From an uncultured virus (IMG/VR IMGVR_UViG_3300043446_000587) (lineage: Duplodnaviria; Heunggongvirae; Uroviricota; Caudoviricetes): 64,000 nucleotides of DNA. Where the stretch lies: the IMG/VR virus record IMGVR_UViG_3300043446_000587; one strand, written 5' to 3'. The notes beneath the pieces were generated by a model, which made no database searches, had not been told where the DNA came from, and saw only the letters and a program-made list of their open reading frames with translations. Shown piece after piece: positions 2,071 through 47,113 of this stretch (the stretch's first letter is position 1; every line of letters starts with the position of its first letter). The position numbers were made by a program, and so were the translations under genes.

Positions 2071-2256
2071 TTATTCGTCCTTATCAGGTTTAGGTTCAAG
2101 TTTTGGTTTCTGTTTCTTCTCAAGCTGCTCGGCACGCTGGAGTATGGCTTCGGCTTTGCGCACTTGTTGGTACGAGAACAACGCTGACGCGATTGAAAAC
2201 CCCAGCAGCGCAATCAAACATGTGACGATCAGTACCCACCAGTAGAACTCCTTCAT
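2071..2256 (-). CDS. Small membrane protein of the lysis cassette
   Basis: Start at MKEFYWWVLIV... (ATGA overlap with the upstream gene), one TM helix and a charged tail. Confidence 0.55.
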   Translation of the reverse strand: MKEFYWWVLIVTCLIALLGFSIASALFSYQQVRKAEAILQRAEQLEKKQKPKLEPKPDKDE

Positions 2257-27550: not shown

Positions 27551-27609
27551 AACTTGACTTATAATAGAGCCAATGCCAAGGCAGACACAAGTCAGAAGAC
27601 CTAGGCAGA
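27551..27609 (+). repeat. Early promoter/leader repeat, copy 1
   Basis: Near-identical to 28410..28469 and includes TATAAT. Confidence 0.9.
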
Positions 27610-27626
27610 CAACAAAGGGGAATGCA

Positions 27627-28310: not shown

Positions 28311-28330
28311 TCATTGGGGCTCACGCCCCT

Positions 28331-28353
28331 TTGAGACCAGTTATTAGTTCTCG
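28331..28353 (+). repeat. 23-bp intergenic repeat, copy 1
   Basis: TTGAGACCAGTTATTAGTTCTCG, with other copies at 29006 and 29910. Confidence 0.85.
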
Positions 28354-28409
28354 AGTGAGCAAGCCTCCAAGCGGCCAAGCGTGCGCTCAAGCGTGTTGTG
28401 AGCCACCGA

Positions 28410-28469
28410 AACTTTACTTATAATAGAGCCAATGCCAAGGCAGACACGAAGTCAGAAGACCTAGGCAGA
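28410..28469 (+). repeat. Early promoter/leader repeat, copy 2
   Basis: TTGTGA(28396)-17-TATAAT(28419). One mismatch and one indel relative to copy 1. Confidence 0.9.
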
Positions 28470-28488
28470 TTACAGAGGAAACTCAAAA

Positions 28489-28947
28489 ATGCAAAAACGC
28501 AAAACAAACCCTTTTATTCAGTCCTTGAATAGCGCTATCAGCACTGCAAAGCGCAAGGCCCGTGACGAATACGAAACCGCAAAGCATGCGGCAAATAAGC
28601 GCTTGGAGTGGAGAGCCAAGTACGCTAGCATCTTCAAGAGCGTCAGTCCTGACACTCTGTCGATTTCGCTCTATTCGCATGGTATGACGGCCTATGTATT
28701 CTTGAATGAGCTTGATTCTTTCAAGGATGAGCGCTTGACCACATTGTTGTCTGCCATCTATGAGCACACAAACTATATTGAAGAGCGTGATTATGCGGCT
28801 TGTTTCAACAAGGACTATATCGCTAATCTTGAAGGCTTGGAAATTCGTGTAGCGGCCTATGTCAAGTCTGACAGCCCAAACTGCTTCAGGGTTCAAGTGG
28901 GGACTGAGGTTCGTGAAGTTCCCAAGTACCAAATGGTCTGCAACTAA
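28489..28947 (+). CDS. Early hypothetical protein
   Basis: GAGGA RBS, 152 aa, followed by a terminator. Confidence 0.65.
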   Translation: MQKRKTNPFIQSLNSAISTAKRKARDEYETAKHAANKRLEWRAKYASIFKSVSPDTLSISLYSHGMTAYVFLNELDSFKDERLTTLLSAIYEHTNYIEERDYAACFNKDYIANLEGLEIRVAAYVKSDSPNCFRVQVGTEVREVPKYQMVCN

Positions 28948-28962
28948 TCAGACCGCCAATAG

Positions 28963-28993
28963 CTCAGCCCTTCGGGGCTGGGTTATTTTTTTT
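28963..28993 (+). terminator. Intrinsic terminator
   Basis: CTCAGCCC-TTCG-GGGCTGGG followed by a T-tract. Confidence 0.85.
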
Positions 28994-29005
28994 GGCCTCT
29001 GGCCA

Positions 29006-29028
29006 TTGATACCAGTTATTAGTTCTCG
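29006..29028 (+). repeat. 23-bp intergenic repeat, copy 2
   Basis: TTGATACCAGTTATTAGTTCTCG. Confidence 0.85.
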
Positions 29029-29167
29029 GGCGCGGGCGGCGTGGTGCGGGCGGGCGTGCGTGCGTCATTTGGGCGAAGGCTTAATTAAGCCATCATGCGG
29101 TGATGAAGTTATAATTAGTGCGTCACCCAAAGGTGACATCTTTATTAACTTTTTTGGAGTATTCAAA

Positions 29168-29848
29168 ATGAAAGCAAAGCAAAACAACACCGCTAACAAT
29201 GCGGTGACAATCAAAAACGAAAAAGACGCCGCATATCAATTTGCGGTTTTGCGTGATAGCGGTAGGTCAATCGTGCAATGGATTTTGGAAAAACACCCCG
29301 ATTTTGCGGACAATGTTTCAGATACCCTTAAGGCACAATTGTATGAGGGTTTGACCACCCGCTACCATGAAAACAATGGCGAGAATGTTTATATGCAGGG
29401 CGATACTGGCACTCTTATCCCTATCGGGAATACAGTTAAGGGTGTGGCTTGCAATGGCAAATTTATGCCGAAAGTGGAAAAAATGCCAGAGGGTGCGGTA
29501 GCTTATGGCATACACCATGTTTTAGCTTACACACCCCAACAGTTGGGCATGATGAAAAGCAAAGAGCCCGCATTGCATAGCATTTTGTCACCTATCAATA
29601 GTTCATTCCGCAAATATGCGTCTAATACTGTGGGTGATATGCAAAAAATGGCAAAGAAAATTATTGACGAAAAAGAGGGCAAAACGCAAACCCGTGAAAT
29701 GCTGCTCTTTATTGATAGCATGACAAAACAATTCGATGCTTGGGATAAACAAGTTAAAAACGCCGAAAAGCGTCTAGACGATACCGCATCATCGGTGCGT
29801 TATCGTGTCGCCAGAGACGCATTTTTCAAAGCCTATAACGCTAAGTAA
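29168..29848 (+). CDS. Early hypothetical protein
   Basis: MKAKQNN start after a GGAG RBS. Relatively AT-rich, with its own terminator. Confidence 0.65.
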   Translation: MKAKQNNTANNAVTIKNEKDAAYQFAVLRDSGRSIVQWILEKHPDFADNVSDTLKAQLYEGLTTRYHENNGENVYMQGDTGTLIPIGNTVKGVACNGKFMPKVEKMPEGAVAYGIHHVLAYTPQQLGMMKSKEPALHSILSPINSSFRKYASNTVGDMQKMAKKIIDEKEGKTQTREMLLFIDSMTKQFDAWDKQVKNAEKRLDDTASSVRYRVARDAFFKAYNAK

Positions 29849-29862
29849 TTTGCTCTGACCAC

Positions 29863-29898
29863 ACCCCGCCAGCCGCAAGGTTGGCGGGGTTATTTTTT
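29863..29898 (+). terminator. Intrinsic terminator
   Basis: ACCCCGCCAGCC-GCAA-GGTTGGCGGGGT followed by TATTTTTT. Confidence 0.85.
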
Positions 29899-29909
29899 GC
29901 CCCTGCCTT

Positions 29910-29932
29910 TTGATGCCAGTTCTTAGTTCACG
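29910..29932 (+). repeat. 23-bp intergenic repeat, copy 3 (diverged)
   Basis: TTGATGCCAGTTCTTAGTTCACG. Confidence 0.75.
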
Positions 29933-29993
29933 CGCGCGTGGGAGGGTGCCAATCCTCTGGGTGAACGCTTAATTAACTGTTCACCCTCACATG

Positions 29994-30553
29994 ATTCCAA
30001 AATTCCAACACGATTCCAATTTGGTTGGAACTGACTTGGAATTTTGGAACTGACTCGGTTGGTTTGCGCCAAGCAAACATTTAGCCATGAGCCGATTCCA
30101 ACCCGATTCCAAATCAATTTGATAAATTGGAACTTAAACCAGTAGGGTTTTAGTATTCATGTCGCCAAATGTGCGTTTAAGCGCCATACCCTTTAGTTCT
30201 AATTTTGTCCATCAGGGTGAGCTGAGTATTAATCTAGTTCCAAAATTCCAAAATTCCAACAGCTTTTTGCGGATTTGGCATGTCAGAGCATTCGTTCGAC
30301 TAGAAACGCACGATGCGTTTTCCACGCCCTCAAAGTTTGCAAAAACAAAAAATTACTCGCCGCTAGAGCAGAACCCCCTTGGAATTTTGGAATTTTGGAA
30401 CTAGATTAATACTACTACTACTACTACTATATTTATATATATTATTAGTTCTCTTTTTTCCCTCATTCCCCACCCCTTCGCTAACCTTAGTATTACAGTA
30501 TTAAATTCCAACCCAGTTCCAATTTATCAAAACTATATTGGAATTTTGGAACC
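29994..30553. repeat. TTCCAA/TTGGAA array with nested inverted repeats (candidate replication origin)
   Basis: Perfect 35-bp IR at 30225..30259/30379..30413 and 17-bp IR at 30118..30134/30515..30531. Also (ACT)n and an AT-rich tract. Confidence 0.85.
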
Positions 30554-30626
30554 GAATGAAACCAAGTATTCATTTCCCCCTCAAAAGTAATACCAAGCTA
30601 ATAACTTTATTAAATAAATTAGCCAC

Positions 30627-30655
30627 TAGACTAAATGTGTAAAGTTTAGTATAAT
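30627..30655 (+). promoter_or_regulatory. Sigma70-like early promoter
   Basis: TAGACT-17-TATAAT with an AT-rich upstream (UP-like) region. Confidence 0.7.
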
Positions 30656-30728
30656 GCCGATGTGCTCGGGGATTGCTCAAGCACGACTGTTAATTAAATA
30701 CTCACCCTCACATGAAAGAGAGATTGCC

Positions 30729-31001
30729 ATGAACCCATCTTTGCCCCGTGCAATTCGCAAAGCGTTGCGCATTGTGACCCCCAAGCAAGTAGTTGCGAGA
30801 GATAAGCACACAGACCTGACTGAGTGCTTCCGCACAGAGTATCGGCTCGACACATATCACACACAGAACCTTGAGTATCTCGACCGAGGCTATGACTTCG
30901 ACGAGTTCCACGACATTGACGACGAGCTGGAGGGGCTGACGATTGTCGAGTGCTCAGACGATGCTGAGTTGTTCGAGTTCTGCACAGGCTACAACATCTG
31001 A
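30729..31001 (+). CDS. Small protein with a highly acidic C-terminal half
   Basis: MNPSL start, then DFDEFHDIDDELEGLTIVECSDDAELFEF. Confidence 0.6.
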   Translation: MNPSLPRAIRKALRIVTPKQVVARDKHTDLTECFRTEYRLDTYHTQNLEYLDRGYDFDEFHDIDDELEGLTIVECSDDAELFEFCTGYNI

Positions 31002-31012
31002 AGGGACACAGC

Positions 31013-31162
31013 ATGGACAAAGAAACACTTACACCTGACGAGTTGCACGACTTGTGGGTGTTGGCTACCAACGAGGCTGACCGCTTTGATGAAGTGCGCT
31101 ACCACTTCACGGCGTTGGCAGAGAAGCTTGCCCGTATGTATAAAGCACAACAGGAGGTGTGA
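31013..31162 (+). CDS. Small hypothetical protein
   Basis: Read manually as MDKETLTPDELHDLW... after an AAGGGA RBS. Confidence 0.5.
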   Translation: MDKETLTPDELHDLWVLATNEADRFDEVRYHFTALAEKLARMYKAQQEV

Positions 31163-31163
31163 C

Positions 31164-31664
31164 ATGGGATATCGTTCAGAAGTTGCTTACCTGATAGCGT
31201 TTCCAAACGAGGCGCAACTGCATGCGTTCGTGGCACAGGCAAAGGTGTTGTCCAACACCCCCAACGAGAACCTGAAGCCCCTTGGAAGGTATGGGAATAT
31301 GGCATCAGCCTTGGATGAGTGCCAGATTAAGCCCGATGCTGACCCGCCGCACATATCGTTCTATGCCGACTCTGTTAAGTGGTATGAGAGCTACGACGAT
31401 GTTCAGAGTCATGAATCGTTACTTGCTTTGGCGAAGGAAAACTATGCCGATGGCGGAGAAAAGACGACTCGATACTGCAACGCAAACGGCTTAAGCGGCA
31501 CATGCACATTGATATCGGCTGAGTTCATGCGGCTTGGCGAGGACGACAACGACACCGAACATTATTCTTTTGGTATGTCACCCCTTACTGAATCGTTCTA
31601 TGTCGATAGGCGTATTGGTATGTTGGGTAGCCTAGCGCAGAATGTTATCGACCATCTCAAGTGA
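31164..31664 (+). CDS. Conserved phage early protein (MGYRSEV type)
   Basis: AGGAGG RBS. MGYRSEV...VKWY...F.RLGEDD.D pattern. Confidence 0.65.
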   Translation: MGYRSEVAYLIAFPNEAQLHAFVAQAKVLSNTPNENLKPLGRYGNMASALDECQIKPDADPPHISFYADSVKWYESYDDVQSHESLLALAKENYADGGEKTTRYCNANGLSGTCTLISAEFMRLGEDDNDTEHYSFGMSPLTESFYVDRRIGMLGSLAQNVIDHLK

Positions 31665-31681
31665 GAAAGTATATTAACAAG

Positions 31682-31710
31682 TTGACTTATATGACAAGTT
31701 GTGGTATACT
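31682..31710 (+). promoter_or_regulatory. Sigma70-like early promoter
   Basis: TTGACT-17-TATACT with an extended TG. Confidence 0.8.
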
Positions 31711-31773
31711 CCCGTTGTGCTCGGACAGTAGTTCAGCACACATCTTAATTAACCATTCACGAGGACATGAATC

Positions 31774-33657: not shown

Positions 33658-34725
33658 ATGTCTAAAGTCAATTTCTCTATGTCTGTTTCATTGCATGAAG
33701 CGAAAGAGGTTATCAAAGCAATCGGTGACACGATTACACCAATCGTTGTGTCCGAGCCAGGTGTCGGCAAGTCAAGCATCCTGAAGATGCTTCAGGCTGA
33801 GATGGGTGACGGTTACGACTATATCTATGTGGACTGCCCTGTGAAGGACATGATGGATGTGGCGGCTAGCATTCCCAACCATGACCGCAAGGCGTTGGAA
33901 TACTATGTGTCGGACTTGTTCAAGATGGACAGCGGCAAGCCCAAGGTCATCATGCTCGACGAGTTCATGAAAGCGCCGAAGCTTCTGCAAATTATCTTCA
34001 CTAGATTGATGCTTGAGCGAAGCGTGGGTGATAAGCCCCTGCCCAAAGGTTCGTATGTGTTCGGCACTTCAAACAATACGACAGACGGCGTTGGCGACAC
34101 CGTTCAGGGTCATGTGGGTAATCGTGTATGTTTCTTGCCGATGCGCAAATCAACCGCAGACGAGTGGAACTTGTGGGCTACCGAGCATGGCGTTGCGAGA
34201 CCCATTCGTGCATGGGTTGCTATGAACCCTCGTGCAATGAAGTCTTACCTCGACCCTGACCAACAGGACAATCCATACATCTTCAAGCCCTCAAGCACAT
34301 CGAAGTCTTTTGTGTCGCCTCGTTCGCTTACGAAAGCATCTCCCATTGTGGAGAAGCGAGACATCATTGGCGAGAACGCCATGATGGTTGCGTTGGCAGG
34401 CACGATTGGCGAAGCGGCGGCTAAGTCTATGGCGGCGTTCATTGCGTTCGAAGGCAAGCTTGTGTCGTTCAAGGATGTTATTGCCGCACCTACCAAGGTG
34501 GCTGTGCCTGATGATATCTCTGCGCAAGTGATGATGATGTTCGAGGCTGTGGACTATGTCGAGACTCAGGACGAGCTGAACAGCTACATGGAGTTTGTCA
34601 ATCGCACCAAGTCAAGCGAGGTGCAAAGCATCTTCTTCACAATGATTATGCGAGCCAAGCCCCGTGTCGCTCGCTACAACGAGCAGATTACCAAGTGGGC
34701 AACTGCTAACCACATGTTGATGTAA
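33658..34725 (+). CDS. AAA+ ATPase (MoxR-like)
   Basis: Walker A SEPGVGKS, Walker B MLDE, sensor TSN, NR arginine finger, SPRS. Confidence 0.85.
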   Translation: MSKVNFSMSVSLHEAKEVIKAIGDTITPIVVSEPGVGKSSILKMLQAEMGDGYDYIYVDCPVKDMMDVAASIPNHDRKALEYYVSDLFKMDSGKPKVIMLDEFMKAPKLLQIIFTRLMLERSVGDKPLPKGSYVFGTSNNTTDGVGDTVQGHVGNRVCFLPMRKSTADEWNLWATEHGVARPIRAWVAMNPRAMKSYLDPDQQDNPYIFKPSSTSKSFVSPRSLTKASPIVEKRDIIGENAMMVALAGTIGEAAAKSMAAFIAFEGKLVSFKDVIAAPTKVAVPDDISAQVMMMFEAVDYVETQDELNSYMEFVNRTKSSEVQSIFFTMIMRAKPRVARYNEQITKWATANHMLM

Positions 34726-34741
34726 TACAGGAGGAACTTAT

Positions 34742-35950
34742 ATGTTGAGTCAAGAGGACCGTGTCAAGAAGGCACACATCATGATGATGAAGCACCCAGA
34801 GACTGCGTTCTATTCGGGCGTGATGATGATGGGTAATACCGAGGTGGTGGACAGCGGCATAACTGCCTACACCGATGGGGTAAACAAACGCTACGGCAGA
34901 AAGTTCTTAGAAGAGTTCTGCCCTGACCAAGCGACGGTCAATGGTCTGGTGTTGCATGAGAACTTGCACATCGCATTGCGTCACATGATTCACAGCATCG
35001 ACCTGTTCAAAGAGGACAGACAGCTAGCGAACATGGCGGCTGACTATGTAGTGAACGACATCATCATGACACTCAAGGACCAGAGTCTAGCCAAGTTACC
35101 AGAGGGCGGGTGCTATGACCCGAAGTATCACAACATGAACATGCGAGAGGTATATCGCATGCTCAAGAAAGAGAAAGAGGAATGCAATGGTGGGAGTAAG
35201 CCCGAAGGCGACAACGAAGGTAACGGCTCAGGTGGGGGTGATTACCAATTTGACGACCACGACATCGAAGGTCAACAACAAGACGGCAAGGACTTTGCGG
35301 ACAGAGCAAAAGAACTTGACTCTATGGTTGACAGAGCATTACGGGAGGGTGCGTTACTTGCTGGTCGCCTTGGCATTGACCTACCCCGAGCCATTACAGA
35401 GATACTTGAACCCCAAGTCAACTGGCGTGAAGAGCTTGCCAACTTTGTGACCGCATCGTGCCGTGGCAATGATGAATACACATGGCGCAAGTTCAATCGC
35501 CGTCAAATCGCCAACGACATTTATCTGCCAACTGTGGAGGATGAAACTATCGGAGAGATTGTTGTGCCCATCGACACATCAGGTTCTATCGGTCAGGAGC
35601 AACTCAACGAGTTCGCCTCAGAACTGGTCTCTATCGCAGAAGCTGTTCAGCCTGAACGCATTCGCATTTTGTGGTGGGACACCAAGGTTCATGGCGAACA
35701 AACCTTTGGACCAGATGAGTTTCAGCAGATAGGTTCTTTGCTCAAGCCACAAGGCGGCGGCGGAACTAGGGTGTCATGCGTGGCTGAATACATAAAGAAG
35801 AAAGACATCAAGGCTGATTGCGTGGTGGTGTTCACCGACGGATATGTTGAATACGATGTTGAGTGGGGAATTTCTTCACCGACATTGTGGCTTGTAACTG
35901 AAAACAAATCGTGGGTTGTCCCCGCAGGTAAGAAAGTGATGGTTAGCTAA
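34742..35950 (+). CDS. Metallopeptidase-like + VWA domain protein (DUF2201-like)
   Basis: TAYTDG, HENLH (HExxH), MIDAS DTSGS, GGGGT, FTDG. Confidence 0.85.
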   Translation: MLSQEDRVKKAHIMMMKHPETAFYSGVMMMGNTEVVDSGITAYTDGVNKRYGRKFLEEFCPDQATVNGLVLHENLHIALRHMIHSIDLFKEDRQLANMAADYVVNDIIMTLKDQSLAKLPEGGCYDPKYHNMNMREVYRMLKKEKEECNGGSKPEGDNEGNGSGGGDYQFDDHDIEGQQQDGKDFADRAKELDSMVDRALREGALLAGRLGIDLPRAITEILEPQVNWREELANFVTASCRGNDEYTWRKFNRRQIANDIYLPTVEDETIGEIVVPIDTSGSIGQEQLNEFASELVSIAEAVQPERIRILWWDTKVHGEQTFGPDEFQQIGSLLKPQGGGGTRVSCVAEYIKKKDIKADCVVVFTDGYVEYDVEWGISSPTLWLVTENKSWVVPAGKKVMVS

Positions 35951-41554: not shown

Positions 41555-43428
41555 ATCTCTTAACGATTGATTTCGAGACTTACTACACAGACAAAGACCT
41601 AGGGTTCAAGCGTCAAACAACCGAAGAGTATGTGCGAGACCCTAGGTTTGAAGTCATTGGTGTAGCCGTGCAAGTTGACGATGCTCAACCAGTTTGGTTC
41701 TCAGGCAACCATGAACAGATTCGTGTGTGGCTGAAACAATTTGACTGGAAGAACAGCGCCACACTTGCGCACAACATGCTCTTTGATGGGTGCATCCTGC
41801 ACTGGCACTTTGGCATCACGCCAATGGTGTTCTTTGACACGCTATCTATGGCGCGCGCGGCTCATGGCGTCGAGGCAGGGGGTTCACTCAAAGCGCTAGC
41901 AGAACGCTACCAAGTTGGAGTTAAAGGTGAAGAAGTTGTTGAAGCCATCAACAAGCGTCGTCTGGACTTTGCGCCAGATGACCTTGCACGTTATGGTGAG
42001 TATTGTCGCAATGATGTGCGCTTGTGTTATGACATTTTTAACCTGATGCGCCCTAGCTTCAACATGGAAGAGTTGAAGCTCATAGACATGACACTGCGCA
42101 TGTTCACCCACCCACAGCTCTACATCGACGAAGAGACTTTGAACGAGCGCCTTCAGAACTTGCAGGAAGAGAAGCTTGAATTGTTGGGTGCACTCAAAGA
42201 GAAGCTCAAGTGCGAGACCGAAGAAGAGGTTCGCAAGAAACTTTCTTCCAACAAACAGTTCGCTGAACTGCTGACTGAGTTTGGCATTCAAGTGCCCATG
42301 AAGTTTAGCGAGAAGCAGAAGAAGGATGTGCCAGCCCTAGCCAAGAAGGACGAAGGGTTTATTGCACTGACCGAACATGATGACCCGTTCATTCAACAGT
42401 TGTGCGCAGTGCGTCTGGGCACGAAGTCTACGCTTGAAGAAAAGCGTATCGAACGATTCATCGAGATTGGGCGACGCAACAAGGGAGCGATTCCCGTCCC
42501 CCTGAAGTATTACGGAGCACACACGGGTCGATGGTCAGGCACTGACAAGATTAATTTCCAGAACTTGCCGAGCCGAGACAAGAAGAAGAAAGCACTCAAG
42601 AACGCTATCGTGCCGCCCGATGGTTATCTGGTGATGAACTCTGACTCGTCACAGATTGAAGCCCGTATGGTTGCATGGTTGGCGGGGCAGGATGATGTTG
42701 TTGAACAGTTCGCACGTGGGGAGGATGTTTATTCCCTATTCGCTAGTGCCGTCTACGGACGCACGATAACCAAAGCGGACGCTGAACAACGCTTTGTGGG
42801 AAAGACCTGCATCTTGGGATTAGGTTATGGCACAGGTGCGGCGAAGCTCCAACATACCCTGGCTACATCTCAACCCATATCCGTAAAGATTGATTTAGAA
42901 GAATCCAAGCGTATCGTGGGTGTGTATCGGGACAAGAACCACGCAATCATTGACTTGTGGGCAGAGGGTGACCGCATGCTTGAAGACATGATTAATGGGA
43001 ACGCAACCGAGCCACGACCGTTCGGTCTGCACAAGGCGGTGTTCTACGACAACGATGGAATCATCCTGCCCAACGGTCTACGCATCCGCTATAAGAATCT
43101 ACGCAAAGAGTGGAACGACGAGGACCAGAAGCTCAAGACGGTCTACGACTCTCGCAAGGGTCAGGTGTCTATCTGGGGTGGAACAGTTGTTGAGAACGTG
43201 GTTCAGGCGCTAGCGCGTATCGTTGTCGGTCACCAGATGGTGAACATCAATGAAACATATCGCGTGGCATTGACAGTCCATGACGCAGCGGTAATCGTTG
43301 TGCCCGAAGACGAACGAGAGCAAGCAGAGCAATTAGTAACTGGCCTCATGTCCGTCCCGCCGGAGTGGGCGCAGGGTTGCCCCGTCGCATGTGAAGCCAA
43401 GATTGGAGCAACCTATGGCGACTGCTAA
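41551..43428 (+). CDS. DNA polymerase, family A (3'-5' exonuclease + polymerase)
   Basis: Exo motifs DFET, HN..FD and Y...D. HTGRWSG, motif A DSSQIEAR, motif B RFVGKTCILGLGYG, motif C VHD. Confidence 0.93.
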   Translation: MNLLTIDFETYYTDKDLGFKRQTTEEYVRDPRFEVIGVAVQVDDAQPVWFSGNHEQIRVWLKQFDWKNSATLAHNMLFDGCILHWHFGITPMVFFDTLSMARAAHGVEAGGSLKALAERYQVGVKGEEVVEAINKRRLDFAPDDLARYGEYCRNDVRLCYDIFNLMRPSFNMEELKLIDMTLRMFTHPQLYIDEETLNERLQNLQEEKLELLGALKEKLKCETEEEVRKKLSSNKQFAELLTEFGIQVPMKFSEKQKKDVPALAKKDEGFIALTEHDDPFIQQLCAVRLGTKSTLEEKRIERFIEIGRRNKGAIPVPLKYYGAHTGRWSGTDKINFQNLPSRDKKKKALKNAIVPPDGYLVMNSDSSQIEARMVAWLAGQDDVVEQFARGEDVYSLFASAVYGRTITKADAEQRFVGKTCILGLGYGTGAAKLQHTLATSQPISVKIDLEESKRIVGVYRDKNHAIIDLWAEGDRMLEDMINGNATEPRPFGLHKAVFYDNDGIILPNGLRIRYKNLRKEWNDEDQKLKTVYDSRKGQVSIWGGTVVENVVQALARIVVGHQMVNINETYRVALTVHDAAVIVVPEDEREQAEQLVTGLMSVPPEWAQGCPVACEAKIGATYGDC

Positions 43429-43876
43429 ACAAATACCTTATGGCACACTGGCTAATGTTAGCGACGAACTGCGCCACGCCTATTACTATTTCCACAGAGA
43501 AGAAAAGTTGCCACCCCTGCCTGAAGTGCCTATCGAGAGTGACAGATACGAGCAGGACTTTTCTAGCAAACATGACGGGCTAGTGTTCTGGGATGCGGTG
43601 AACGGCATGTTGAGCACAAGAGAGCGGCAAGTAATCTACATGCGCTATTGGCAAGACATGTCACTAGAGAGCGTAGCCATGCACATGCGGCTGACCCGTG
43701 AGCGTATCCGTCAGATTGAAGCGAAAGCTTTTCGGCGTATCAAAATGCACATCGTTTACGCCAACCAACACATGTATGAACTCAGGAAAATACCTCACCC
43801 ATACAAGAAACTTTATCCCACCAACCGTAACCTAGACCTAAGATTTGCTGAATTCTGTTACTATTTCGAAGACTAA
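43415..43876 (+). CDS. Sigma70 region-4 domain protein
   Basis: LSTRERQVI..RY....SLE.VA....LTRERIRQIEAKA. Confidence 0.8.
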   Translation: MATAKQIPYGTLANVSDELRHAYYYFHREEKLPPLPEVPIESDRYEQDFSSKHDGLVFWDAVNGMLSTRERQVIYMRYWQDMSLESVAMHMRLTRERIRQIEAKAFRRIKMHIVYANQHMYELRKIPHPYKKLYPTNRNLDLRFAEFCYYFED

Positions 43877-44558: not shown

Positions 44559-44809
44559 TGGAATCTCAAACTTTAATTGACTACGCCTATCCGATGATGC
44601 GGATTGAAAAGCTTCTAAAAGACATGCACAATGACCTTCTTGAAGGCGACATGACTGAAGCCCAACACAAAGCCAACATCCTGATTGCCGAAACCAAAAT
44701 TTTATTGAACACTCTTGTAATCATGCAAGAAAAGGAAAGCCAACATGCCATACGTCAACAAGCCCCGACCCTACAAGAAAGAGTATCAGCAACAGAAGGA
44801 GCGGGGTGA
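44558..44809 (+). CDS. Hypothetical protein
   Basis: IDYAYPMM.IEK. Abuts the nuclease gene. Confidence 0.5.
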   Translation: MESQTLIDYAYPMMRIEKLLKDMHNDLLEGDMTEAQHKANILIAETKILLNTLVIMQEKESQHAIRQQAPTLQERVSATEGAG

Positions 44810-45056
44810 ACACGAACGTCGCATGGAGCGCCAGCGCGCACGTCGAGCGATTGACAAGCGTGACACTGGCACTGTGACTAAAGAATCTCCTAGACGCAAA
44901 GGCAAAGATGTTGCACACGTCGTCGCGCTCGACAAGGGTGGTACAAATAAAGACGGTACATACATCACAAGCGCCGCCGCAAATCGTTCTTTCAGACGCG
45001 ACTCTAAGGGTAACCTCGTATCTGAAACAAGCAAAAAAGAACGAAAAAGAACTTGA
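44745..45056 (+). CDS. HNH-like small basic protein
   Basis: RPYKKEY...GKDVAH..AL.KGG.N...NRSF. Confidence 0.7.
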   Translation: MPYVNKPRPYKKEYQQQKERGEHERRMERQRARRAIDKRDTGTVTKESPRRKGKDVAHVVALDKGGTNKDGTYITSAAANRSFRRDSKGNLVSETSKKERKRT

Positions 45057-45080
45057 CAAATAAAAAATCGGACTTATCAT
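45053..45080 (+). promoter_or_regulatory. Sigma70-like promoter for the ncRNA cluster / helicase operon
   Basis: TTGACA-16-TATCAT. Confidence 0.6.
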
Positions 45081-45114
45081 AGTATTCAGTGCTTGGTTTG
45101 CTTTGCTGAGTACA

Positions 45115-45236
45115 GGCCATAAGGTGTGAGTGGGCCAGAGGTTTAATTGCGCCTCGTAACCGCATCAGTCAATCGGTGGTTTAAATCCTCCCTTTCGCCG
45201 CGACAGGATTGACTGACAACCCGGAAAGACGGGTAC
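45115..45236 (+). ncRNA. C4-antisense-like structured RNA
   Basis: Stems GGTGTG/CGCATC, GAGG/CCTC and CAGTCAATC/GATTGACTG, plus a 3' ACCCG-GAAAGA-CGGGT hairpin. Family assignment is from recall only. Confidence 0.5.
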
Positions 45237-45325
45237 TAACACGCATGAGTATTGTCAGGGGCTGGAAACCTCTGCGGTAGTCGCAACCTGCTGCTGTAGC
45301 AAAGGCAGTACTCAGTCGTGTTGGT
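45235..45325 (+). ncRNA. Structured RNA, long bulged stem
   Basis: ACTAACACG-CA-TGAGTATTG pairs with CAGTACTCA-GT-CGTGTTGGT, enclosing internal hairpins. Confidence 0.5.
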
Positions 45326-45544
45326 GGAAAAGGGTAACGCTATGGGACGCCATAGCTATGTTGCATCGTGAGGGCTTTGCAACTGAAACAACCTCCCACG
45401 CTCCGTTCAGGGGGAAGCACCCTGCTGATGATTGGGACACCAACAACTTGCATAAGCCGAAGGCTCGACGGTTAATCTAATCCGTCTGAGGTATCCACCG
45501 CACCAAGAAACAGAAGCGGGGACAACAAACAGTTTTGGAGAAGT

Positions 45545-47113
45545 ATGGAAGTAGTTGAAGACAGTGCAGTGCGCTTTCAGTGTCCACCTGAAATTGCGCA
45601 AGACATCACAAAGTACATCAAGAAGTCCGAGGTGCTTTCGTCGTCGAACGGTGTCGCTGATGTTGTGGTGTATTGGGGGCTTGAAGAGATGCAACGTCTC
45701 GCGCGCCTTACCCCTAGCACAATCAAAGTCCCATCCCCTATCGAGCGTGATTACAAGTGGCCCGGAATGTACACGCCTATGGACCACCAGCGAGATACCG
45801 CACGGTTTCTTTCTTTGCATCGTCGTGCGTTTTGCTTCAATGAAGCAGGCACAGGCAAAACATCAGCGGCTATCTGGGCGGCTGACTATCTGATGAATCA
45901 GGGTGTGGTGAAGCGTGTCCTAGTCATCTGCCCCCTATCAATCATGCAAAGCGCATGGCAAGCTGATCTGTTCAAGACAGCTATGCACAGAACATGTGCT
46001 ATCGCACACGGCACGAAGCGTCGTAAAGTGATTCAAGGCGGCTACGAGTTCGTCATCATCAACTATGACGGCGTGGCGGCTGAGTTTGAAACTATCAAAG
46101 CACATGGGTTTGACCTTGTCATCATCGACGAAGCAAACGCATACAAGAACCCAAGCACCGTGCGTTGGAAGGTTCTTGCCAAGATGATTAATCCAGACAC
46201 GTATTTATGGATGATGACCGGCACTCCTGCGTCTCAGTCACCCGAAGATGCTTTTGGTCTGGCGAAGTTGGTGAACCCAAACAATGTACCGAAATATAGA
46301 ACTGCGTGGAAAGAGAAAGTCATGACGCAGATTACTCGGTTCAAGTGGGTCCCAAAGTCTGATGCGCGTGACACAGTGTTTAGCGCTTTGCAACCTGCTA
46401 TCCGCTACGAGAAGGCGCAGTGCGTTGACTTACCAGAGCTGACACACCAGACACGAACAGTGCCGTTGAGTCCACAGGCGGCGAAGTATTACAAGGACCT
46501 TGTGCGAGAGATGCAGATTCAAGCCGCAGGTGAGACTATCAGCACAGTCAATGCCGCCGCCGCACTTAGCCGCTTACTTCAATTGTCGGGCGGGGCTGTC
46601 TACACCGATGATGGCAATGTGGTCGAGTTCGATGTAGCCCCACGGTTGAGCGTCTTGCATGAGGTCTTGGAAGAGTCGCCACACAAGGTGATTGTGTTTG
46701 TGCCGTACAGACACACCCTGACTCTGATAAAAAATTATCTGGACAAACACAGCGTCAGCAACGAAGTCATCTCCGGTGATGTATCAGCTAACGAGCGATC
46801 AGCAATCTTCAATCGTTTCCAAACAACGAATGACCCAGAAGTATTACTGATTCAACCGCAAGCCGCATCACATGGTGTTACTTTGACCCGTGCTGATACG
46901 GTTGTGTTCTGGTCACCCGTCATGTCTGTCGAGACATACTTGCAGTGCATTGCGCGTATCGACCGTATCGGACAGAAAAATTCTATGACAGTCATCCACC
47001 TTCAAGGGTCCGAGGTGGAACGGCGTATGTACACGATGTTGCAAAACAAAGTGGACATGCACGAACGACTTGTGGACCTGTATCGAGAAGAAATGGAGGA
47101 AATCAATGGTTGA
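45545..47113 (+). CDS. SNF2-like superfamily 2 helicase
   Basis: EAGTGKT, DEA, TGTP, HGVTL, ARIDRIGQ. Confidence 0.9.
   Translation: MEVVEDSAVRFQCPPEIAQDITKYIKKSEVLSSSNGVADVVVYWGLEEMQRLARLTPSTIKVPSPIERDYKWPGMYTPMDHQRDTARFLSLHRRAFCFNEAGTGKTSAAIWAADYLMNQGVVKRVLVICPLSIMQSAWQADLFKTAMHRTCAIAHGTKRRKVIQGGYEFVIINYDGVAAEFETIKAHGFDLVIIDEANAYKNPSTVRWKVLAKMINPDTYLWMMTGTPASQSPEDAFGLAKLVNPNNVPKYRTAWKEKVMTQITRFKWVPKSDARDTVFSALQPAIRYEKAQCVDLPELTHQTRTVPLSPQAAKYYKDLVREMQIQAAGETISTVNAAAALSRLLQLSGGAVYTDDGNVVEFDVAPRLSVLHEVLEESPHKVIVFVPYRHTLTLIKNYLDKHSVSNEVISGDVSANERSAIFNRFQTTNDPEVLLIQPQAASHGVTLTRADTVVFWSPVMSVETYLQCIARIDRIGQKNSMTVIHLQGSEVERRMYTMLQNKVDMHERLVDLYREEMEEING

What the first reader, a model, noticed from the sequence alone, without database searches (positions are those of the whole stretch)
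45053..45545. Promoter-driven ~460-nt cluster of structured non-coding RNAs in the replication module
Seen in the sequence: an ORF-free gap behind TTGACA-16-TATCAT, packed with helices. These are GTATTCAGT/GCTGAGTAC (45082-45113), a three-stem unit (45123-45234), a long bulged stem (45235-45325), and a multibranch unit closed by AGGGT/ACCCT (45331-45423). That unit holds GCTATGG/CCATAGC and GTTGCA/TGCAAC, whose loop CGTGAGG can pair with CCT..CACG at 45392-45400 as a possible pseudoknot. Three further hairpins follow (AGCC/GGCT, GACGG/CCGTC, CCGC/GCGG). Several G-U pairs favour function as plus-strand RNA. Inference: a polycistronic sRNA precursor processed into several RNAs, in a genome otherwise tightly packed with overlapping genes.
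Basis: partly seen in the sequence, partly recalled or inferred. Interest (0 to 1): 0.8.

Follow-up and report, generated by a model that had tools for sequence, protein, structure and literature searches.

The report
Plug-in small-RNA cassettes in lake phage
The gap between two replication genes of an uncultured phage is a real cluster of folded, uncatalogued RNA modules: a knotted RNA kept by the whole phage family, plus two imported small-RNA cassettes that unrelated phages swap with one another, probably cut out of one transcript by host enzymes, for a job still unknown.

Summary
The 488-nt gap between the HNH-like gene and the SNF2 helicase is real structured sequence, but a mosaic rather than one unit. 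(H) A hairpin after it recurs across many phyla. (B) A 19-bp stalk encloses a 51-nt insert; 117 stalk units carry 114 different inserts, and this insert is 50/51 identical in an unrelated phage. (C) The multibranch unit is closed by an 8-bp, tRNA-acceptor-like stem that interlocks with the stalk; it is 83-92% identical in four other phages. B and C lie in a ~250-nt insertion that close relatives lack. No Rfam family matches; transcription is untested. Best reading: a stable-RNA operon whose frames let host RNase P/III release swappable small RNAs. This scan noted what is probably the same stalk family in six other windows; module A and hairpin H were not found in its notes.

The parts
44745..45056 (+). 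HNH-like 103-aa ORF, upstream neighbour (phrog_4590, unknown function)
   Evidence: no Pfam hit; the HNH-like label is my reading of its motif, recalled
45053..45080 (+). sigma70-type promoter with 16-bp spacer
   Evidence: a like promoter in 31 of 58 distinct related loci, 23 of the 31 with a 16-bp spacer
45082..45113 (+). lineage-specific hairpin overlapping the expected transcription start; no comparative support
45115..45217 (+). Module A: P1 (45115-18/45133-36), 14-nt loop forming a pseudoknot (45123-28 and 45130-31 with 45159-66), optional hairpin (45138-55), P3 (45168-74/45207-13), 3' YGAC
45214..45233 (+). Module H: UGACA followed by a hairpin with a GAAAGA loop
45236..45326 (+). Module B: 19-bp stalk (45236-54/45306-24) with a central 2x2 mismatch, around a 51-nt insert (45255-45305)
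   Evidence: insert 50/51 identical in L343/L601
45319..45447 (+). Module C: 8-bp acceptor-like frame (45319-26/45438-45, then A-C) around hairpins 45339-56 (covarying), 45360-83 and 45407-28
45455..45486 (+). two small hairpins inside the inserted block; no homolog shown
45488..45523 (+). Module D: CCACCGC..GCGGGG hairpin that follows H directly in relatives L020 and L070
45545..47113 (+). SNF2-family helicase, downstream neighbour (GGAG at 45537-40)

Best explanation
The gap is a small stable-RNA operon. Resident part (shown by comparison): promoter, pseudoknot A, hairpin H, hairpin D, then the helicase. Imported part (shown): a ~250-nt block, stalk B plus framed unit C, that entered between H and D from a pool of cassettes shared by many unrelated lake phages, most simply by homologous recombination at the short constant arms (inferred). 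Mechanism (inferred): the transcript folds the stalk first; its 3' arm doubles as the 5' strand of an 8-bp acceptor-like stem around the next unit, the two folds being almost equal in energy. A host double-strand nuclease (RNase III type) would cut the stalk and free insert B; RNase P would cut in front of the acceptor-like stem, and 3' trimming with CCA repair would finish unit C as a stable tRNA-framed small RNA. A with H is a self-contained folded RNA that marks or protects an RNA end. The released RNAs most likely act by shape, as ligands or decoys for host RNA-binding or defence proteins (weakest step, about 0.3).
For: Insertion boundaries against four relatives. Stalk: 117 distinct units, 114 distinct inserts, two-sided changes at pairs 7, 13, 14, 15, 16, 19 and a U-G pair in 113 of 117; inserts always in one orientation (all opposite-strand matches involve 11 double-counted units). 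tRNA CCA = first three stalk bases in L336, L366, L367 and L413. Frame: 78 of 111 stalk 3' arms have CCAACA 30-200 nt downstream, and the two free pairs are paired in 75 and 68 of 78 against shuffled means of 65 and 51 (0 of 2000), followed by A-C in 56 of 78; a perfect 8-bp partner in 73 of 125 against 7.6% in controls; in L386 the frame carries a canonical D-arm and T-arm, in L426 and L330 a T-arm. Window: -78.6 against -77.9/-78.4 kcal/mol for the two folds. C is 83-92% identical in four phages, two of which share no other DNA with the window. No reverse transcriptase, recombinase or RNA ligase among 75 flanking proteins of 55 loci; 24 of the 55 lie beside terminase genes of several families. 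Independent stalk insertions into the same operon in L081, L028 and L339.
Against: No transcript, cut site or end was observed. Only 7 of 60 stalk loci scanned hold a tRNA. C lacks a T-loop, and A-C-T, not A-C-C-A, follows its frame; only 4 of 73 frames are followed by ACCA. The stalk is short and mismatched for an RNase III site, and enzyme determinants were not tested. In 8 of the 31 relatives with a promoter, P1 of A starts within 4 nt of the -10 box, so it could form only in read-through RNA. The stalk counts come from patterns that demand most of the arm sequence, which inflates pairing. Only the longest ORF on each side was scanned (75 of 122 proteins), so a small partner protein is not excluded.
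Confidence: 0.55

Rival explanations
1. Module A (with H) is a self-cleaving ribozyme of a new class that punctuates the transcript; the cassettes were drawn to the RNA end it makes.
For: Compact pseudoknot with 15 invariant columns in 56 sequences; independent of the downstream gene; in bacteria it sits after genes in islands with VIT/vWA, WYL and an RNA-repair HAD gene nearby. Self-cleaving ribozymes are enriched near phage-type genes (PMC10085705, passages); that WYL and VIT are on that list is recalled, the source paper was not held.
Against: No match to any Rfam ribozyme at E <= 10; hatchet's conserved segments are not present; in several bacterial copies a hairpin and U-run follow, and PMC5737381 (passages) reports that comparable terminator-ended motifs did not self-cleave.
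Confidence: 0.14
2. The region is a cis-acting leader that controls the helicase-SSB-primase operon (feedback by a replication protein, or put-like antitermination), the inserts being passengers.
For: A lies before the helicase in 69 of 77 pattern hits with enough flank, often right at the expected transcription start (5-9 nt after the -10 box in 9 of 31).
Against: A is 330 nt from the helicase start here, separated from it by other ORFs in about 9 loci, absent from 13 of 80 loci, and in L583 it lies between oppositely oriented genes with no downstream target.
Confidence: 0.12
3. The stalks and frames are selfish or neutral hitch-hiking RNA units tolerated in strongly transcribed gaps, with no benefit to the phage.
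For: Patchy presence; close relatives lack B and C; A is sporadic in bacteria (9 of 121 and 2 of 121 genomes).
Against: Insert families keep their own folds and sequences across unrelated phages, and no mobility gene was seen beside them.
Confidence: 0.1
4. The arms work as DNA: attC-like or invertible recombination sites that shuffle cassettes.
For: The 5' and 3' arms are near-inverted repeats in alternating order; RNA and ssDNA folds are hard to tell apart computationally (PMC5737381, passages).
Against: No inverted insert; wobble pairs are G-U on one strand only; exact docking on tRNA CCA ends; no integrase or invertase among 75 flanking proteins; inserts are not ORFs.
Confidence: 0.06
5. 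The cassettes are packaging RNAs (pRNA-like) for the terminase.
For: 24 of 55 stalk loci and all four C homologs lie just upstream of terminase genes.
Against: Here the array is about 18 kb from the terminase; the same unit C goes with unrelated terminases; the start of the late operon is also the usual place of phage tRNAs (recalled).
Confidence: 0.03

Closest known systems
Phage and bacterial tRNA/stable-RNA operons matured by RNase P, RNase III and 3' exonucleases (rrn processing stalks, T7 early RNase III sites, T4 species I/II RNAs; all recalled)
   Same: Promoter-led polycistron of folded units, long stalks around a payload, acceptor-like stems, real tRNAs as occasional neighbours.
   Different: Payloads are more than 100 different non-tRNA inserts swapped between unrelated phages; stalk and acceptor-like frame overlap and compete; no tRNA in this window.
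Polycistrons of irregular tRNAs and 8/4 allo-tRNAs (Mukai et al., PMC5389517; passages seen)
   Same: Arrays of tRNA-shaped units with 8-bp acceptor stems, some not used in translation.
   Different: Those keep cloverleaves and anticodons; unit C has neither, and no stalks with swappable inserts appeared in the passages seen.
GOLLD and ROOL RNAs (PMC5737381; passages seen)
   Same: Structured RNAs often near tRNAs and in prophages.
   Different: Single large conserved folds; no Rfam match here; this region is a chain of independent mobile units.
Hatchet ribozyme (PMC6561176, PMC4604424; passages seen)
   Same: Superficial likeness of one helix of A and its flanking A-rich linker to hatchet P2.
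   Different: A has a pseudoknot topology and lacks the conserved C20-A22, U28-G31 and G63-G66 segments; Rfam gives no hit.
T4 gene 32 leader pseudoknot (mentioned in PMC10690425, passages) and HK022 put RNA (recalled)
   Same: Folded leader in front of a replication operon.
   Different: A is not tied to a start codon or to one downstream gene.

Membership tests
Any Rfam 15 family | score at or above the gathering threshold | tested here: not met
   0 in the window; one chance hit, CRISPR-DR56 at 17 bits, E 2.3, in the region; only tRNAs in 20+20 homolog loci; none in 6 bacterial A loci
tRNA gene / tRNA cluster | cloverleaf with D-, anticodon and T-arm | tested here: not met
   ARAGORN finds none in the window; unit C has no T-loop
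tRNA-framed RNase P substrate | acceptor-like stem with free discriminator | tested here: met
   8-bp frame, covarying free pairs, A-C after it in 56 of 78
tRNA-framed RNase P substrate | encoded 3' CCA after the discriminator | tested here: not met
   window reads A-C-T-T; ACCA in 4 of 73
tRNA-framed RNase P substrate | cleavage by RNase P | not testable with these tools
   needs an enzyme assay
RNase III processing stalk | about two turns of double helix around a payload | tested here: inconclusive
   19 bp with a 2x2 mismatch, a second mismatch in about half of units; short for the enzyme by recalled rules
RNase III processing stalk | staggered cleavage | not testable with these tools
   needs an assay or RNA end maps
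Hatchet ribozyme | conserved C20-A22, U28-G31, G63-G66, A73-A75 segments; helices P1-P4 without the A-type pseudoknot | tested here: not met
   A has GUWA before and AGUG after the helix, and a pseudoknot
Hammerhead, twister, pistol, HDV-like ribozymes | Rfam model match or core motifs | tested here: not met
   no hit at E <= 10; permuted forms can escape the models (PMC10085705)
Integron attC array / shufflon | recombinase nearby; ORF cassettes or inverted segments | tested here: not met
   (longest flanking ORFs only)
Reverse-transcriptase template arrays (retron, UG27) | adjacent reverse transcriptase | tested here: not met
   none beside the gap or among 75 flanking proteins
Candidate structured RNAs of Fremin et al. 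2023 (PMC10690425) | overlap with one of 8,495 IMG/VR models | not testable with these tools
   alignment files could not be read; the tables searched held none of the motifs

The most novel reading that the evidence does not exclude
Lake phages share a mobile library of more than a hundred different small folded RNAs, each loaded into one of two interlocking standard frames that host enzymes cut out: an RNA counterpart of integron cassettes, whose payloads are decoys or aptamers against host defence and RNA-binding proteins. This phage docked two such cassettes behind a family-wide pseudoknot that may itself be an undescribed catalytic or end-protecting RNA.
Probability: 0.3. Interest if true: 0.9.

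Novelty: new variant of a known kind. Interest (0 to 1): 0.68.

Why it matters
If the reading holds, uncultured freshwater phages use non-coding RNAs as exchangeable accessory genes, in a standard expression frame, much as they use small proteins. That would give over a hundred naturally selected small RNA folds to test for anti-defence or decoy activity, and a natural plug-in scaffold for making stable small RNAs. Module A is a well-supported orphan pseudoknot that can be tested for self-cleavage in an afternoon, and hairpin H is a 20-nt element found across many bacterial phyla and phages without a name.

Tried and rejected
Rfam at gathering and E-value thresholds on the window, region and homolog loci: nothing but tRNAs. 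blastn of the gap against 50,697 phage records: no match; an array from L326 matched only through its tRNA; best cultured helicases are 37-40% identical. The window's assembly is not held and the nearest virus record, a 31-kb fragment, lacks the region. A loose pattern for unit C gave 119 hits of which 1 was a homolog; tighter ones gave 3 true of 6 and 2 of 2 in viral contigs (one phage) and 4 true of 6 in metagenomes. One alignment used wrong coordinates (redone) and one structure string was out of register for the frame helix (redone). Sequencing runs: no RNA holder listed, which is no evidence either way. Model R1 found A in 0 of 86 stalk loci, so A and B are independent. No tblastn match to the window's sigma-region-4 protein in the 80 related loci, so no link to the 16-bp promoter is claimed. 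Eight literature searches (listings only, first 30 of 53 for the motif search) showed no description of these modules.

Full report
Setting. The window is most of a tailed-phage genome: terminase and capsid genes on the - strand, and on the + strand a family A polymerase, a sigma-region-4 protein, an exonuclease, a 103-aa HNH-like ORF, a SNF2 helicase and a DUF927 primase-like gene. No cultured phage is close (helicase at most 40% identical). The finding is the gap between the HNH-like stop (45056) and the helicase start (45545). Rfam and ARAGORN find nothing in the window. That the relatives are lake phages rests on my recall of this gene order and on the one bacterial-collection hit for the stalk, a 3.4-kb contig in a Burkholderiales bin; the host is not shown.

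Observation. The promoter and the listed helices are in the sequence. Energy alone is modest evidence: z = -2.9 for the whole, but 8% of 532 tiles in the window reach z < -2. The comparative evidence is what decides, and it splits the gap into parts with different histories.

Relatives show an insertion. Eighty loci fetched by the HNH-like protein (the best 80 of 589) have gaps mostly of 160-260 nt before the helicase. Alignment with four of them shows promoter, module A and hairpin H shared, hairpin D following H directly in L020 and L070, and 45236-45486 present only in the window. On a helicase tree of 46 loci the window groups with L020 and L070 among others (support 99/91).

Module A. Its loop GUWA-GGYRYG-AGUG pairs with AAC-CRYRUC downstream, across P1 and an optional hairpin, and a third stem P3 follows. 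On 56 sequences (of 68 dissimilar ones drawn from 96) 95.5% of cells pair against 76.5% shuffled and 29-41% for slid registers; 16 of 21 pairs change on both sides; the pseudoknot is 99.8% paired, with 22 and 27 two-sided changes at two pairs. These rows were picked with a pairing filter, so I checked loci chosen by protein: in 46 such loci, where only the outer pseudoknot bases were fixed, those two pairs are Watson-Crick in 46 of 46 and their joint state changes at least 9 times on the tree; a looser parse of 51 gave 49 and 48 paired. A covariance model finds A in 67 of 80 loci, 45 of the 58 not used to build it. A DNA pattern gave at least 120 viral hits: 69 of 77 with enough flank lie before the helicase and 72 of 80 after the HNH-like gene, but other ORFs can intervene and 8 lie elsewhere. 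A also occurs in bacterial records, among them Methylophilales HTCC2181 and Polynucleobacter kasalickyi, in 9 of 121 genomes of the latter's genus and 2 of 121 of the former's family (only 30 candidates scored per genome). There it mostly follows a gene on its own strand, in islands with VIT/vWA, WYL or an RNA-repair HAD gene, and ends in a hairpin often followed by U-rich sequence; in L583 it has no same-strand neighbour. So A is a self-contained RNA, not a helicase-specific leader. A promoter precedes it in 31 of 58 distinct loci, 23 with a 16-bp spacer; in 9 P1 starts 5-9 nt after the -10 box, as for a 5'-terminal fold, but in 8 it starts within 4 nt, which does not fit.

Hairpin H. After A comes a GUAA-capped hairpin in 68 of 93 cases and a GAAAGA-capped one in 14. 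It directly precedes a stalk in 10 of 131 units, as in the window, which offers a crossover point for the insertion (inference).

Module B. The arms CTAACACGCATGAGTATTG and CAGTACTCAGTCGTGTTGG belong to a family with at least 120 viral hits. Across held loci there are 117 distinct units with 114 distinct inserts of 20-104 nt, falling into 77 clusters once 11 double-counted reverse matches are dropped. The stalk keeps a central C-Y/A-G mismatch, a U-G pair in 113 of 117, and changes on both sides at six positions; the window carries one such change itself. Inserts are never inverted. The window's insert is 50 of 51 identical to one in L343/L601, whose 6 kb share only one other 41-nt match with the window. 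In four loci a real tRNA's CCA is the first three bases of the stalk, but only 7 of 60 loci scanned hold a tRNA. Arrays lie beside terminase genes in 24 of 55 loci and beside recombination or replication genes in many others; no RT, recombinase or ligase was seen among 75 of 122 longest flanking proteins. Stalks have entered this same operon independently in L081 (after A), L028 (before A) and L339 (after the helicase).

Module C and the second frame. The last eight bases of the stalk's 3' arm pair with CACCAACA downstream. This frame is general (78 of 111; free pairs 75 and 68 of 78 against 65 and 51 shuffled) and is a tRNA acceptor stem in form: in L386 it carries a canonical D-arm and T-arm, in L426 and L330 a T-arm. 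In the window the stalk-closed and frame-closed folds differ by under 1 kcal/mol. The body of C is 83-92% identical in four other phages, all upstream of terminase genes; two are distant kin by terminase, two share no other DNA. With five sequences these counts are thin.

How it most likely works. Shown: plus-strand base pairing under selection in A, B, the frame and part of C; mobility of B and C; recent insertion behind A-H. Inferred: one transcript, cut at the stalk by an RNase III-type enzyme and before the frame by RNase P, yields a ~50-70-nt insert RNA and a ~125-nt framed RNA; A-H forms a stable end. Guessed: the products act as shape decoys or ligands. Rivals are a self-cleaving A, cis control of the replication operon, neutral hitch-hiking, DNA-level recombination and packaging RNA, in that order.

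What is known. Nothing in Rfam; eight literature searches gave no description (listings only). I read passages of PMC5737381, PMC10690425, PMC10085705, PMC6561176, PMC4604424 and PMC5389517; the alignment supplements of PMC10690425 could not be read and may hold some of these modules as unnamed candidates. This scan's notes describe what is probably the same stalk family in six other windows, including CCA docking and interlocking (no sequences are shown, so identity is presumed); I found no note on A or H. Statements on RNase P, RNase III, T4, T7 and HK022 are recalled.

Verdict. Real, uncatalogued and mosaic. It works like a phage stable-RNA operon but is not a member of a named RNA family. 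Interest 0.68: the stalk family is a repeat within this scan; the pseudoknot, the wide-ranging hairpin, the covarying second frame and the caught-in-the-act insertion are what this window adds.

Noticed in passing
window 45214-45233; L453-L532: Hairpin UGACA + stem + GAAAGA loop is very widespread in bacterial genomes and phages, often just before tRNA genes, and has no Rfam family.
   Followed up: partly
L490, L529, L483: The same hairpin sits as a spacer between CRISPR-like repeats in two Microcoleus records and a Pseudomonadota bin, so elements of those hosts carry it too.
   Followed up: no
L579, L583, L607-L617: Module A in bacterial islands beside VIT/vWA, sortase, WYL, helicase IV and an RNA-repair HAD gene.
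   Followed up: partly
L353 about 2090-2170 (+): A tRNA lacking its anticodon arm sits as payload inside a framed unit.
   Followed up: no
L386 downstream of the stalk; L426; L330: tRNA-shaped units whose acceptor stem is the frame, with a large insert in place of the anticodon arm.
   Followed up: partly
L326, L333, L347, L353, L372, L414, L421: A third recurring scaffold inside frames: a GGCTGATGCG hairpin at the 5' side and a GGAGATCAGCACC hairpin at the 3' side, with complementary loops, around a further variable insert.
   Followed up: no
window 27551-27618 and 28410-28478: 68-nt direct repeat with a promoter-like TATAAT at the start of the rightward early region.
   Followed up: no
window 28328-31773: Several short repeat families (23-30 nt, 3-4 copies) between small early ORFs, possibly promoter or operator cassettes.
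   Followed up: no
window 43391-43876: Stand-alone sigma70 region-4 protein between polymerase and exonuclease; no tblastn match in the 80 related loci.
   Followed up: partly
L032, L034, L058, L069 (HNH-helicase gap): Relatives without module A carry a different small hairpin with a GTGGACACCCAC core at the same place.
   Followed up: no
window 33658-35950: AAA ATPase followed by a 402-aa protein (phrog_1297, phrog_1314); L158 has module A one gene downstream of a similar-looking ORF.
   Followed up: no
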